In this document: piece by piece, positions 28,253 to 30,642 of the stretch
Layout of the letters: each line of letters starts with the position of its first letter
Position numbering within the stretch: the stretch's first letter is position 1
Virus genome (UHGV): UHGV-0260253
DNA length: 35,763 bases
Strand: one strand, 5' to 3'
Source of the DNA: a virus
Program-made: the position numbers and the translations under genes
The notes under the pieces: model-generated
Database searches by the model: none
What the model was told of the DNA's origin: nothing
The model's input: the letters and a program-made list of their open reading frames with translations, nothing else

Positions 28253-28257
28253 ACAAT

Positions 28258-28276
28258 ATGTACCTCCGGTATACAT
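28258..28276. promoter_or_regulatory. Operator-like site OR-a (ATGTACC-N7-TACAT)
   Basis: ATGTACCTCCGGTATACAT, inverted arms ATGTA/TACAT; overlaps pR -10 and cro leader; same architecture as the site in the pL-like promoter. Confidence 0.45.
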
Positions 28277-28302
28277 ATTACATGATTGAAATGAACCTTC
28301 AA
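28275..28302 (-). promoter_or_regulatory. pR-like promoter for cro operon
   Basis: Minus strand TTGAAG-N16-TAATAT upstream of cro-like gene. Confidence 0.45.
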
Positions 28303-28306
28303 GATA

Positions 28307-28327
28307 CTTGTACCTTAACGGTACAAG
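28307..28327. promoter_or_regulatory. Operator-like perfect palindrome OR-b
   Basis: CTTGTACC-TTAAC-GGTACAAG, 8-bp perfect inverted arms; overlaps -35 of the pRM-like promoter. Confidence 0.5.
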
Positions 28328-28342: not shown

Positions 28343-29017
28343 ATGAAAACAATCCATGACATCCGGCGGTCTAACGCCAGAAAACTGAGAGATGGTGTTG
28401 GAGGGAATTCTTCCTTTGCCACTATGATTGATCGCGAGCCAACCCAGACCAGCAGGTTTATGGGAGATGGTGCTACTAAAAATATCGGTGACAGCATGGC
28501 ACGACACATCGAAAAATGTTTCGACCTGCCTGTCGGATGGCTCGATCAAGAACACCAGACAACGAACATCACAAAAAAACCTGATGTTTCAATCACTAAT
28601 AAACAAATCACATTAGTCCCTGTCATATCATGGGTACAGGCCGGAGCATGGAAAGAAGTTGGATATTCTGAGGTTGATTTGAGCACAGCAGAAACGTATC
28701 CCTGCCCTGTACCCTGTGGGGAAATGACTTATATCTTGCGGGTGATAGGTGATTCAATGATTGATGAGTACCGCCCGGGAGACATGATTTTTGTCGATCC
28801 TGAAGTACCTGCCTGCCACGGTGACGACGTTATTGCATTGATGCACGATACAGGTGAAACCACCTTCAAAAGGTTGATAGAAGATGGGACACAGCGTTAT
28901 CTCAAAGCGTTAAACCCAAACTGGCCTGAGCCTTACATTAAGATCAACGGTAATTGCTCTATAATTGGAACTGTGATTTTCTCAGGAAAACCAAGAAGAT
29001 ACAAAATCAAAGCCTAA
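28343..29017 (+). CDS. CI-like repressor (HTH plus S24 LexA-like peptidase domain)
   Basis: 224 aa; N-terminal HTH (ATKNIGDSMARHIEKCFDLPVGWLD), C-terminal autocleavage motifs VIGDSM (Ser) and TTFKRL (Lys). Confidence 0.85.
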   Translation: MKTIHDIRRSNARKLRDGVGGNSSFATMIDREPTQTSRFMGDGATKNIGDSMARHIEKCFDLPVGWLDQEHQTTNITKKPDVSITNKQITLVPVISWVQAGAWKEVGYSEVDLSTAETYPCPVPCGEMTYILRVIGDSMIDEYRPGDMIFVDPEVPACHGDDVIALMHDTGETTFKRLIEDGTQRYLKALNPNWPEPYIKINGNCSIIGTVIFSGKPRRYKIKA

Positions 29018-29030
29018 TCAATGTTTATGA

Positions 29031-29052
29031 ACCTGCTTCGGCAGGTTTTTTT
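29031..29052 (+). terminator. Rho-independent terminator after repressor gene
   Basis: ACCTGC-TTCG-GCAGGT hairpin followed by TTTTTTT. Confidence 0.6.
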
Positions 29053-29056
29053 ATAC

Positions 29057-29085
29057 TTGACAATGTACCTATGAGATACATAATG
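29057..29085 (+). promoter_or_regulatory. pL-like early promoter with embedded operator
   Basis: TTGACA-N17-ATAATG; spacer contains ATGTACCTATGAGATACAT (29063-29081) and a second ATGTACC at 29083-29089. Confidence 0.55.
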
Positions 29086-29188
29086 TACCCAAGAGAAACA
29101 ACAAACAGGCAGGACGCCCACGAAGTAGCCGCCGGTGGCGTATGAATGACCGGATGATTCGTTAAATACTATGTGTAAGAGAGCGCAA

Positions 29189-29392
29189 ATGAACCGTTAT
29201 TTCACATGCTCGTTTTGTGGCGCAAACGAGCTGCAGGCAAAAAAAATCATCGCCAAAGGCGGAAAAGATGAAGTTGCTATCTGCTCTGAGTGCGTAGTCT
29301 TGTGTGTCGGGGCATTAATCAATATCAGCACAACTATTCAGTTCACACCAAATGAGAATGCGCCTTTAGATGCGCGGAAATCTGGAGGTTAA
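29189..29392 (+). CDS. Small ClpX-type zinc-ribbon protein
   Basis: YFTCSFCGANELQAKKIIAKGGKDEVAICSECV: C-x2-C-x19-C-x2-C with CSFCG, as in the ClpX N-terminal zinc-binding domain (recalled). Start may be 29171 or 29189. Confidence 0.55.
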   Translation: MNRYFTCSFCGANELQAKKIIAKGGKDEVAICSECVVLCVGALINISTTIQFTPNENAPLDARKSGG

Positions 29393-29400
29393 AGAACAAA

Positions 29401-29676
29401 ATGAAAGTCCAGATTTTAAACAATAGTGGTGAAGTCGTTTGGTCATACGACATAGCCGCTCCTGTAGATCAGAGCGGCGATAGCTGGACCAATGGGAAAC
29501 ATCAGATTATGGCTGGAGTTGTGTTCTCTTTACGCCGTGCTTTAGAACAAGCTGAAGTCTTTCCATCAGACCCTGAATGGAAATGGCCTTTTTCTATTTG
29601 TCCAAATTCGGAGAGTACATTTCAGAAAATTGGTCAGAAAGTCGCACTCGAAGAGCATCAGCCAACTGTTTCCTGA
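29401..29676 (+). CDS. Hypothetical early protein (91 aa)
   Basis: Starts 9 nt after previous stop with GGAGG upstream; 3' end overlaps a convergent ORF. Confidence 0.4.
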   Translation: MKVQILNNSGEVVWSYDIAAPVDQSGDSWTNGKHQIMAGVVFSLRRALEQAEVFPSDPEWKWPFSICPNSESTFQKIGQKVALEEHQPTVS

Positions 29677-29839
29677 TTTTTTCAGGTAACTCGTCGGCAT
29701 CGCAGAAACAACAACGCTCGATCATGTTGAAAGCCGATTCGTAGAACTGTTTTTGCTGAGTGTCGCTGAGACAGGAAAAGAGCGACGTTACGATGATTTT
29801 ATTAATTGCATTATCAAGTTCTTTTTCATCAAAAGTCAT
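29594..29839 (-). CDS. Hypothetical protein (81 aa), antisense to early operon
   Basis: AAGGA SD 9 nt upstream of ATG; overlaps the 3' end of the plus-strand ORF by 83 nt. Confidence 0.35.
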   Translation of the reverse strand: MTFDEKELDNAINKIIVTSLFSCLSDTQQKQFYESAFNMIERCCFCDADELPEKIRKQLADALRVRLSDQFSEMYSPNLDK

Positions 29840-30279
29840 TTGATTTTCCTTTTATGTATACGGGCTTAAAAGGATACCACCGAGCCTGAAGTGGTGAAAA
29901 GACAGGCACATAACAGCTAAGTATTTTCAACCAGAGAGAATCCTTAGCGTTGTGGTGAATGCGCAGGCTGATGCGCGAAAGACATTGCAGCTATTGCAGA
30001 AAAGAGCTGTTCGGCGGGGCAATTAAATGCCCGTGAGAGTCTGAAATAACCGCATGCCGGAGATCAGCACCGGTCACCACAACAGCCACTGCTTTGGCGG
30101 TACCAGTTTGTACACTTGCTTCCGGCTGGTACCGCTCTTTTTACAAAACAGAGAAGAGCATCACCGGACGACGAGCTGATAACCCAATCCATCCGGGCGG
30201 CTGCCACCGCAGGTGTTCTTCTCTGTTTTGTGGAGAAACCAACCGACCTTGCAGGGTCGATATGATGAGGAGCAGCAAA

Positions 30280-30642
30280 ATGGCTAGCGAACGCAGTACT
30301 GATGTGCAGGCATTTATCGGGGAGCTGGACGGCGGCGTATTTGAAACCAAAATCGGCGCAGTTCTCAGTGAAGTCGCTTCCGGTGTGATGAACACGAAAA
30401 CCAAAGGTAAGGTCTCACTCAACCTGGAAATCGAACCATTTGATGAGAACCGTGTGAAAATCAAACACAAACTCTCATATGTTCGCCCGACTAACCGCGG
30501 GAAAATTTCCGAAGAAGACACCACCGAAACGCCGATGTATGTCAATCGCGGTGGTCGCCTGACTATTCTGCAGGAAGACCAGGGACAATTACTGACTCTT
30601 GCCGGTGAGCCTGACGGAAAACTACGCGCAGCAGGTCATTAA
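30280..30642 (+). CDS. Hypothetical protein (120 aa, possibly YfdP-like)
   Basis: Start chosen at ATG 30280 (MASERSTDVQ) with GAGGAG SD; the long upstream extension lacks an SD. Confidence 0.45.
   Translation: MASERSTDVQAFIGELDGGVFETKIGAVLSEVASGVMNTKTKGKVSLNLEIEPFDENRVKIKHKLSYVRPTNRGKISEEDTTETPMYVNRGGRLTILQEDQGQLLTLAGEPDGKLRAAGH

What the first reader, a model, noticed from the sequence alone, without database searches (positions are those of the whole stretch)
29171..29392. ClpX-type zinc-ribbon mini-protein as first gene of the pL-like operon
The first ORF downstream of the pL-like promoter, the slot occupied by N in lambda, encodes a protein of about 67 aa whose core (CSFCG...x19...CSEC with K-I-A-G spacing) closely resembles the N-terminal zinc-binding domain of ClpX. 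A free ClpX ZBD could compete for adaptor or substrate docking on the host ClpXP protease (which degrades lambda O and Mu repressor), or it may be a zinc-ribbon regulator. Either would be an unusual immediate-early function.
Basis: partly seen in the sequence, partly recalled or inferred. Interest (0 to 1): 0.55.

Follow-up and report, generated by a model that had tools for sequence, protein, structure and literature searches.

The report
Prophage copy of ClpX zinc finger
A prophage of the e14/SfV type has, as the first gene of its repressor-controlled early operon, a 67-residue free-standing copy of the zinc-finger docking domain of the host ClpX protease; databases already label it, nobody has tested it, and it most plausibly acts as a decoy for that docking domain.

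Summary
The ORF (probable start 29189, stop 29392, 67 aa) matches Pfam zf-C4_ClpX above threshold. Its AlphaFold model superposes on E. coli ClpX zinc-binding-domain (ZBD) crystal structures. Across four subfamilies its first 45 codons are under strong purifying selection.

It is the first gene after a near-consensus promoter overlapped by two repressor operators. In K-12 e14 the same control region keeps its first gene, ymfJ, silent until the SOS response.

It is not new as an object. RefSeq already names it "ClpX C4-type zinc finger protein", and it falls in PHROG families of unknown function. It is also accessory:
- 131 of 5,426 complete E. coli genomes carry it.
- About 10% of related phages carry it; SfV and e14 do not.
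- Some copies are frameshifted.

No function is shown. The decoy idea is plausible because isolated ClpX ZBD inhibits RssB-dependent sigma-S degradation in vitro. A target unrelated to ClpXP is almost as likely.

The more surprising find lies just upstream, at 29098-29167. It is a ~65-nt structured leader RNA with two helices supported by covariation. It has no Rfam match and does not match HK022 put. It is conserved from E. coli prophages to Aeromonas phages and T5-like Providencia phages.

The parts
28343..29017 (+). cI-type repressor (YmfK/CohE homologue with a LexA-like S24 autopeptidase domain), transcribed towards the finding
   Evidence: Pfam Peptidase_S24, 92.8 bits. RefSeq annotates it as 'ymfK: LexA family protein'.
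29029..29048 (+). Intrinsic terminator after the repressor gene; it separates the cI transcript from the pL operon
   Evidence: 8-bp stem with 4 G-C pairs followed by a T run. SfV annotates the same site as a putative rho-independent terminator.
29057..29084 (+). pL-like sigma-70 promoter, TTGACA-16 nt-CATAAT
   Evidence: 11 of 12 consensus matches. The number of promoter-like sites in the region is not above chance; the support comes from the operators and from near-identity with e14 pL.
29062..29100 (+). Two repressor operator sites (29062-29080 and 29082-29100) over the promoter spacer, the -10 hexamer and the start region
   Evidence: The 19-nt motif AATGTACC-N5-GATACA occurs twice here. 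Related copies lie in the cI/cro intergenic region at 28257-28275 and 28290-28308, together with the palindrome 28307-28327.
29098..29167 (+). Conserved structured leader RNA. Helix P1 pairs 29101-29105 with 29158-29162; helix P2 pairs 29132-29136 with 29149-29153. They enclose a near-invariant 25-nt strand, CAGGCAGGACGCCCACGAAGUAGCC
   Evidence: 94.3% of cells form standard pairs; 9 of 11 pairs show changes on both sides; 0 of 500 shuffles reach the observed values; slid controls pair 19-44%. Covariance model R1 scores 90.5 bits here and finds a single copy in the window. No Rfam family matches.
29189..29392 (+). Gene for the ClpX-ZBD-like mini-protein (67 aa; an upstream in-frame ATG at 29171 would give 73 aa). 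Residues 1-50 form the zinc ribbon plus helix; residues 52-67 are predicted to be disordered
29239..29246 (+). A8 homopolymer inside the gene. Copies with one base fewer encode a truncated 35-aa product
   Evidence: locates the run. Five IMG/VR loci (L050-L054) carry the frameshift. Several E. coli genomes have 99%-identical copies that are one base shorter and unannotated.
29401..29676 (+). Next gene of the operon (91 aa, YmfJ/SfV orf33 family, unknown function). Its GGAGG ribosome-binding site lies inside the end of the ZBD gene
   Evidence: phrog_3195, E = 8e-64. It aligns with SfV orf33. It follows the ZBD gene in 30 of 53 ZBD-positive loci.

Best explanation
This is an accessory immediate-early gene of an e14/SfV-type lambdoid prophage. 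It encodes a free-standing homologue of the N-terminal C4 zinc-binding domain of ClpX, followed by a short disordered tail.

In the lysogen the YmfK-type repressor occupies two operators over pL and the gene is silent. After RecA-stimulated repressor cleavage, or on infection, pL fires. The transcript begins with a conserved structured leader RNA, and the ZBD gene is the first one translated.

The protein most likely folds like the ClpX N-domain, as a zinc-bound and probably dimeric treble-clef finger. It would then act as a soluble decoy. It would bind ligands that normally dock on the ClpX N-domain: the adaptors SspB and RssB, or N-domain-dependent substrates such as O-type replication initiators, UmuD or FtsZ. 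That would selectively slow N-domain-dependent ClpXP proteolysis without blocking the ClpX pore. Functionally this is analogous to lambda CIII acting on FtsH.

Shown: domain identity, predicted fold, purifying selection, position, and operator-controlled promoter architecture. Inferred: zinc binding, dimerisation, expression timing (by homology with e14), and the whole decoy step.
For: Domain and fold:
- Pfam zf-C4_ClpX 41.3 bits against a cut-off of 27.
- All PDB sequence hits are ClpX, led by the isolated E. coli ZBD.
- The AF2 model superposes on 2ds5, 2ds6, 2ds8 and 1ovx at rmsd 1.4-2.1 A and 36-41% identity.
- This is about twice the ~20% identity of CsfB, the only characterised stand-alone look-alike (PMC5890618).

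Selection:
- dN/dS is 0.10-0.25 over the ZBD codons, while the C-terminal tails differ completely between subfamilies.

Regulation:
- Operators lie over pL.
- e14 of K-12 has a near-identical pL, operators and leader. Its first gene, ymfJ, rises by log2 4-4.8 late in the SOS response (PMC11002266).

Feasibility of a decoy:
- Isolated ClpX ZBD at 5-20 uM inhibits RssB-mediated sigma-S degradation by 0.6 uM ClpXP (PMC7226468).
- The N-domain is needed for lambda O, MuA, UmuD, FtsZ and SspB-assisted degradation, and these ligands share one site (PMC3983244; PMC7804408).
- F16 of that hydrophobic site is invariant in the phage family as the F of CSFCG.

Context:
- In mEp237 the leader lies about 160 nt upstream of an annotated Kil gene, a small protein that acts on the host.
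Against: - No interaction was or could be tested here.
- I46, the second residue named for the lambda-O/adaptor patch, is Ala in this protein and A/I/V/T/K across the family.
- A 3-residue insertion alters the beta-hairpin turn. From my own recollection of Park et al. 2007, which is not held in the library, this hairpin contacts the SspB tail.
- Presence of the gene does not correlate with a particular O-like or CII module. YmfL-type CII is found in 53/53 ZBD-positive and 45/52 ZBD-negative loci, and O types are distributed alike.
- The gene is dispensable: absent from SfV and e14, and frameshifted in some copies.
- The in-vitro inhibition needed roughly 10- to 30-fold excess of ZBD over ClpXP, so high expression would be required.
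- ClpXP inhibition could hinder clearance of repressor fragments. This is an inference from LexA biology, from my own knowledge.
Confidence: 0.4

Rival explanations
1. Generic dimeric zinc-ribbon scaffold with a target unrelated to ClpXP. The fold would serve only as a stable dimerisation or presentation module, as in the Bacillus anti-sigma factor CsfB. Specificity would lie in surface residues or in the variable C-terminal tail, which inhibits or recruits some other host or phage protein such as a sigma factor, a division protein or a defence protein.
For: - CsfB shares the dimeric treble-clef fold with the ClpX N-domain but has different partners (PMC5890618).
- The four enterobacterial subfamilies keep residues 1-45 but carry unrelated tails of about 16 to 75 residues.
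- A sequence resembling the tail of the 121-aa type (…DKELFKQLLQLV…) occurs as a stand-alone first gene after the leader in another phage.
- 590 clusters of mostly short, often tandem ZBD-like proteins exist in metagenomes, so the module is widely reused.
- The domain is also reported within cyanobacterial sigma-factor architectures (PMC11119718).
Against: - The phage domain is much closer to ClpX (36-41% identity, nearly all Pfam consensus positions) than CsfB is.
- The 67-aa form in this window has only a short, low-confidence tail, so the ZBD itself must carry the activity.
Confidence: 0.3
2. It acts on ClpX itself. The mini-protein would heterodimerise with ClpX N-domains as a poison subunit, or dock onto the ClpX hexamer so that its tail delivers chosen proteins for degradation, making it a phage-encoded adaptor.
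For: - The ClpX N-domain dimerises through its C-terminal helix and hairpins.
- The phage helix (residues 33-51 in the model) is even more hydrophobic: VVLCVGALINI against VDLCNDIIREE.
- Variable tails on a constant ZBD fit a constant-anchor, variable-cargo design.
- Synthetic peptides that dock on ClpXP components can redirect ClpXP to new targets (PMC12373786).
Against: - Nothing suggests that ZBD dimers exchange subunits.
- No multimer prediction could be run here.
- The 67-aa form has almost no cargo-binding tail.
Confidence: 0.12
3. Nucleic-acid-binding zinc-ribbon regulator: an N-like antiterminator or a translational regulator that recognises the conserved leader RNA or operator DNA.
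For: - It sits in the N position, a constant 83-92 nt downstream of the start of the leader's 25-nt conserved core.
- Zinc ribbons often bind nucleic acids (general knowledge).
Against: - The leader is conserved in about 90% of related phages that lack the gene, including SfV and e14.
- There is no arginine-rich motif and no Pfam hit to N, Ogr/Delta or Com-type families.
- The ClpX N-domain is a protein-docking module.
Confidence: 0.05
4. Functionless captured fragment of a clpX gene that happens to be carried in a variable slot.
For: - The gene is accessory and is sometimes frameshifted at an A8 run.
- It is absent from close relatives.
Against: - Strong purifying selection operates across four diverged subfamilies whose synonymous sites are saturated.
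- The position, start codon and ribosome-binding site are conserved.
- The gene occurs across E. coli and Salmonella prophages with different immunity types.
Confidence: 0.03

Closest known systems
[quoted passage not shown]
   Same: - CxxC...CxxC zinc ligands, and the CSFCG, K-[IL]-[IV]-A and ICxECV motifs.
- 36-41% identity.
- The predicted fold superposes at rmsd 1.4-2.1 A.
   Different: - Free-standing, with no AAA+ module.
- A 3-residue insertion in the hairpin turn.
- The helix is more hydrophobic.
- I46 of the ligand patch is not conserved.
- Encoded by a phage and controlled by the phage repressor.
CsfB (Gin), the Bacillus subtilis anti-sigma-G/sigma-E factor
   Same: A small stand-alone protein whose dimeric treble-clef zinc finger resembles the ClpX N-domain. 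It works by binding and inhibiting another protein (PMC5890618).
   Different: Only about 20% identity to ClpX, and its evolutionary relatedness is doubted by its authors. It is a sporulation gene of Firmicutes, not a phage gene. The protein here is a clear sequence homologue of ClpX.
Lambda CIII (inhibitor of the host FtsH protease)
   Same: A small protein from the pL early operon that modulates a host AAA+ protease by competition. This comparison comes from established lambda biology (my own knowledge).
   Different: No sequence or fold similarity. The target is FtsH, not ClpXP. The analogy is functional only and is untested.
Anti-adaptors IraP, IraM and IraD, and other phage protease modulators (T4 PinA and T7 Gp4.5 against Lon; SPO1 Gp53 with ClpCP)
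   Same: Small proteins that tune regulated proteolysis by sequestering an adaptor or binding the protease. IraD, IraM and IraP bind RssB (PMC7226468). The phage examples are from my own knowledge.
   Different: Unrelated folds. None of them mimics a domain of the protease itself.
Lambda N and HK022 Nun (occupants of the first-gene slot after pL)
   Same: Position only.
   Different: No arginine-rich RNA-binding motif and no homology. The neighbouring leader RNA is kept in phages that lack this gene.

Membership tests
Pfam PF06689 zf-C4_ClpX (ClpX C4-type zinc finger) | Profile score above the curated gathering threshold | tested here: met
   41.3 bits against a cut-off of 27, E = 1.4e-10, covering profile positions 2-34 of 39. 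Five of the six relatives tested also pass (30.5-44.6 bits); the 121-aa type falls just below at 26.2 bits.
Pfam PF06689 zf-C4_ClpX | Four zinc-ligand cysteines arranged CxxC ... CxxC | tested here: met
   C7, C10, C32 and C35 are invariant in all intact family members.
Pfam PF06689 zf-C4_ClpX | Treble-clef fold (beta-hairpins plus C-terminal helix) as in the ClpX N-domain | tested here: met
   Predicted model only. The top 8 Foldseek PDB hits are all ClpX ZBD, with target TM-score 0.68-0.84 and rmsd 1.4-2.1 A.
Pfam PF06689 zf-C4_ClpX | Binds one zinc ion and forms a homodimer | not testable with these tools
   Needs metal analysis and SEC-MALS or NMR. No multimer prediction was available.
Functional ClpX N-domain (docking site for SspB, RssB, lambda O, MuA, UmuD, FtsZ) | Conserved hydrophobic ligand patch (F16 and I46 in E. 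coli numbering) | tested here: inconclusive
   F16 is conserved as F9. I46 aligns with A42 here and with I/V/T/K in relatives.
ClpX AAA+ unfoldase | AAA+ ATPase module and ClpP-binding IGF loop | tested here: not met
   The protein has 67 aa. The NCBIfam ClpX equivalog models score 25.8 and 22.7 bits against cut-offs of 359 and 371, and only over the N-terminal finger.
Lambda N-type antiterminators | N-terminal arginine-rich motif that binds a boxB hairpin, and a requirement for the cognate nut site | tested here: not met
   No arginine-rich motif in MNRYFTCSFCG... and no Pfam hit. The leader RNA persists without the gene.
Ogr/Delta-type phage zinc-finger activators | Profile match to the Ogr_Delta family | tested here: not met
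   No such hit at E up to 1. The only other hits are Elf1 (13.7 bits) and NOA36 (11 bits), both far below their cut-offs.
Known anti-phage defence proteins (PADLOC-DB) | Profile match to a defence-system component | tested here: not met
   No hit for the 67-aa, 112-aa or 121-aa forms.
HK022 put RNA (tested for the neighbouring leader RNA) | Sequence and structure similarity to putL/putR, with copies after both pL and pR | tested here: not met
   Model R1 finds nothing in the HK022 immunity region (best 9.7 bits). The window holds only one copy, on the pL side. A similar function is not excluded.

The most novel reading that the evidence does not exclude
The mini-protein would be the first natural, trans-acting mimic of a protease's own substrate-docking domain. 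It would be a phage-encoded ClpX N-domain decoy, made immediately after prophage induction. By titrating SspB, RssB or N-domain-dependent substrates it would rewire host ClpXP proteolysis, for example by stabilising sigma-S, the phage replication initiator or FtsZ-related targets, while leaving pore-dependent degradation intact. The longer paralogues (112 and 121 aa) would use the same anchor to carry different effector tails.
Probability: 0.3. Interest if true: 0.65.

Novelty: new member of a known kind. Interest (0 to 1): 0.4.

Why it matters
ClpXP controls lambda O, MuA, sigma-S, UmuD, FtsZ and several antitoxins. If the decoy idea holds, this 67-residue protein would be a compact natural tool for switching off only adaptor- and N-domain-dependent ClpXP degradation. 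It would also add domain mimicry of the protease itself to the ways phages manipulate host proteolysis.

The gene occurs in about 2% of complete E. coli genomes. Paralogues are present in the probiotic strain Nissle 1917 and in widespread Salmonella prophages.

If the idea fails, the gene remains an ordinary accessory early gene of unknown function. The adjacent leader RNA may turn out to matter more. It is a deeply conserved structured element at the start of early operons in many temperate phages. It has no Rfam family and is a candidate cis-acting regulator of transcription or of RNA stability.

Tried and rejected
- **Upstream start at 29171.** Rejected in favour of 29189 on the ribosome-binding site, the PGAP call and conservation.
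- **Ogr/Delta, Elf1 or another ribbon family.** No significant hits.
- **Defence gene.** No PADLOC hit, and the gene is repressor-controlled rather than expressed in the lysogen.
- **Link to a particular replication or CII module as a clue to the target.** No association found.
- **Function of the longer C-terminal tails.** No Pfam or PDB sequence match.
- **Residue-level mapping of the SspB-tail contacts.** Thibault 2006 was requested and is not held. Park 2007 is known only from reference lists, and no coordinates were available offline. Only F16 and I46 could be taken from PMC7804408. The CLIPPER paper gave no residues.
- **Literature on stand-alone phage ClpX fingers.** Searches returned nothing relevant.
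- **Mehta et al. 2004 on e14.** Not held.
- **The 7-codon mini-ORF in the leader as a leader peptide.** Rejected, because its ATG is lost in many variants while base pairing is kept.
- **Leader as an HK022 put homologue or any Rfam family.** Rejected.
- **A second, pR-side copy of the leader.** None found.
- **Possible H-type pseudoknot in the leader** (GUAGCC pairing with the GGC.UA of the P2 loop). It cannot be tested because those columns barely vary.
- **Genome-contig scan with the family alignment.** It found only two distant Clostridia hits and gave no useful context.

Full report
**What is there.** The + strand carries an ORF from 29171 to 29392. Only that ATG has a Shine-Dalgarno-like AAGAGAG run 5 nt upstream. 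RefSeq uses the same start (WP_001083098.1, 'ClpX C4-type zinc finger protein'). It is also where conservation begins in every relative. The protein is MNRYFTCSFCGANELQAKKIIAKGGKDEVAICSECVVLCVGALINISTTIQFTPNENAPLDARKSGG.

**Is it a ClpX-type finger?** Yes.
- Pfam zf-C4_ClpX scores 41.3 bits against a cut-off of 27, E = 1.4e-10. No other zinc-ribbon family comes close.
- All PDB sequence hits are ClpX, led by the isolated E. coli ZBD entries 2ds5 and 1ovx. The alignment shows a 3-residue insertion in the hairpin turn.
- An AlphaFold model built on a 10-sequence alignment has mean pLDDT 70, with 69-88 in 10-residue blocks over residues 1-50 and a disordered tail.
- The eight best Foldseek PDB hits for that model are all ClpX ZBD, with target TM-score 0.68-0.84, rmsd 1.4-2.1 A and 36-41% identity.
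- NCBIfam's full-length ClpX models match only the finger and fall far below their cut-offs, so this is a domain homologue and not a ClpX.

**Is it a real gene?** Four enterobacterial subfamilies share residues 1-45 and differ completely afterwards. They are the 67-aa form here, a 61-66-aa form, a 112-aa Salmonella form and a 121-aa form found in E. coli Nissle 1917. Over codons 1-45, synonymous sites are near saturation (pS 0.42-0.95) while pN is 0.14-0.23, giving dN/dS of 0.10-0.25 where computable. The ZBD is therefore under strong purifying selection.

**Setting and regulation.** The window is an e14/SfV-type lambdoid prophage; in the near-identical E. coli 14EC007 prophage the attachment end lies next to a tRNA-Thr gene and proA. 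The local order is as follows:
- a cI-type S24 repressor (28343-29017);
- an intrinsic terminator (29029-29048);
- a near-consensus promoter (29057-29084, 11 of 12 positions);
- the leader RNA, the ZBD gene, and then a ymfJ/orf33-type gene.

A 19-nt operator motif (AATGTACC-N5-GATACA) occurs twice over the promoter. Related copies lie in the cI/cro intergenic region. E. coli K-12 e14 has a near-identical promoter, operators and leader, followed directly by ymfJ. In K-12, ymfJ is silent and rises by log2 4-4.8 late in the SOS response (PMC11002266). By homology, the ZBD gene should be switched on by induction and be immediate-early rather than a lysogen-expressed gene. No expression data exist for this gene itself.

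**How common, and how essential?**
- 131 of 5,426 complete E. coli genomes have the gene or its 75%-identical paralogue.
- IMG/VR yielded 82 related loci.
- In about 78 of 83 loci the gene starts 83-92 nt after the start of the leader's conserved 25-nt core. This holds across at least five repressor clusters.
- Of 109 viral contigs found through the leader alone, only 11 carry it.
- The other contigs carry different first genes. In mEp237 an annotated Kil gene follows the leader.
- SfV and e14 lack the gene.
- Five IMG/VR loci and several E. coli genomes have a one-base loss in an A8 run, which truncates the protein to 35 aa.

The gene is therefore an accessory occupant of a variable first-gene slot and is not an N equivalent. 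Its presence does not track a particular O-like or CII module. PADLOC gives no defence hit.

**Mechanism.** Nothing here tests function, and I found no paper on stand-alone phage ClpX fingers. Published biochemistry makes a decoy feasible:
- The ClpX N-domain is the shared docking site for SspB, RssB, trigger factor, lambda O, MuA, UmuD and FtsZ (PMC7804408; PMC3983244).
- Isolated ZBD added in trans at 5-20 uM inhibits RssB-mediated sigma-S degradation by 0.6 uM ClpXP (PMC7226468).

The phage protein keeps almost every Pfam consensus position, including F16 of the hydrophobic ligand patch. I46 is Ala here, however, and the hairpin turn is longer.

I therefore put about 0.4 on a ClpX N-domain decoy. 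Functionally it would resemble lambda CIII acting on FtsH. I put about 0.3 on a CsfB-like use of the same fold against an unrelated target. Two things support that rival: the variable tails, and a stand-alone first gene in another phage whose sequence resembles the 121-aa tail. Smaller weights go to action on ClpX itself (0.12), nucleic-acid binding (0.05) and a functionless remnant (0.03, largely excluded).

**Wider family.** A profile search of 1.84 billion representative proteins found 590 clusters at E <= 1e-3. Among the 150 best listed, nearly all are 50-300 aa, and many contain two to four tandem ZBD-like repeats. Only 15 clusters are close relatives at E <= 1e-10. Stand-alone ClpX-type fingers are thus a large and uncharacterised class, and this gene is one more member of it.

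**Novelty and score.** The identification already exists in RefSeq and PHROGs (phrog_5259 and phrog_20296, both of unknown function). The hypothesis is attractive and cheap to test but is unsupported by direct evidence. I rate interest at 0.4 and novelty as a new member of a known kind.

**The leader RNA (outside the finding).** Window 29098-29167 encodes a ~65-nt element starting about 10 nt after the predicted transcription start.
- In 40 distinct variants, two helices are supported by covariation. 94.3% of cells form standard pairs, and 9 of 11 pairs change on both sides. No shuffle out of 500 reaches the observed values, and slid controls pair only 19-44%.
- The mini-ORF inside it is not conserved.
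- The invariance of the 25-nt core in the IMG/VR set is partly by construction, because that set was found with an exact-match pattern. The core is nevertheless nearly unchanged in independently found phages: Pectobacterium ZF40, mEp237, Aeromonas pAEv1818 and the T5-like Providencia phage PSTCR5.
- There is one copy per locus in 99 of the 100 sources searched; the exception, L139, also has a weaker second match of 43.5 bits. In the temperate phages whose annotation was read, the copy lies early in the early-left operon, directly after the repressor gene in most.
- It has no Rfam match, and the model finds nothing in the HK022 put region.
- Its function is unknown. Candidates are a put-like cis-acting antiterminator, a Rho antagonist or an mRNA stabiliser.

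Noticed in passing
window 29098-29167 (+); also L206 6109-6179 (e14), L002 4199-4268 (SfV), L003 4902-4971 (Nissle), L209 (ZF40), L208 (mEp237), L210 (Aeromonas pAEv1818), L207 (Providencia PSTCR5): A conserved ~65-nt structured leader RNA at the start of the early-left transcript. Two helices are supported by covariation, around a near-invariant 25-nt strand (CAGGCAGGACGCCCACGAAGUAGCC). There is no Rfam family, no match in the HK022 put region, and one copy per locus in 99 of 100 sources searched (L139 has a weak second match). It is present whatever the first gene is, and it even occurs in T5-like Providencia phages. Function unknown: a put-like antiterminator, a Rho antagonist or an RNA stabiliser are candidates. 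A possible H-type pseudoknot could not be tested because those columns do not vary.
   Followed up: partly
window 29239-29246: An A8 run inside the ZBD gene. Five IMG/VR loci (L050-L054) and several complete E. coli genomes (for example H60-H64, where the copy is unannotated) have one base fewer, giving a 35-aa truncated product. This could be real inactivation, phase-variation-like slippage or sequencing error.
   Followed up: partly
window 29401-29676 (+) and 29594-29839 (-): Convergent genes overlapping by 83 nt at their 3' ends. They fall in phrog_3195 (YmfJ/SfV orf33 type) and phrog_3311. K-12 e14 shows the same arrangement with ymfJ and ymfI (63-nt overlap). PGAP does not call the minus-strand gene in the near-identical E. 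coli prophage. Antisense interplay is possible.
   Followed up: no
window 29860-30300: About 440 nt with no convincing ORF that is 95-99% identical in many lambdoid phages (mEp460, Stx2 phages and others) and partly conserved upstream of rdgC in the Nissle prophage. Annotations vary between 'hypothetical protein', 'YfdP' and none. There is no Rfam hit. It may be a long regulatory 5' region or an RNA.
   Followed up: partly
L003 5001-5366 (Nissle 1917 prophage); one leader-bearing IMG/VR locus: The 121-aa paralogue is a ZBD fused to a C-terminal domain (…DKKLFKELLQLVLNLPDFG…). A similar sequence occurs as a stand-alone first gene after the leader in another phage (MDKSDLIAEQ…DKELFKQLLQLV…). This suggests domain shuffling, with the ZBD as a portable module.
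   Followed up: no
proteins P0024-P0160: Hundreds of clusters of short proteins made of one to four tandem ClpX-type zinc fingers and no AAA+ module, for example P0024 with four repeats in 226 aa. Their origin and function are unknown.
   Followed up: no
window 29143-29166: A 7-codon mini-ORF (MNDRMIR*) inside the leader. It looks conserved in a few phages, but its ATG is lost in many variants while base pairing is kept. It is most likely a by-product of the RNA structure.
   Followed up: yes
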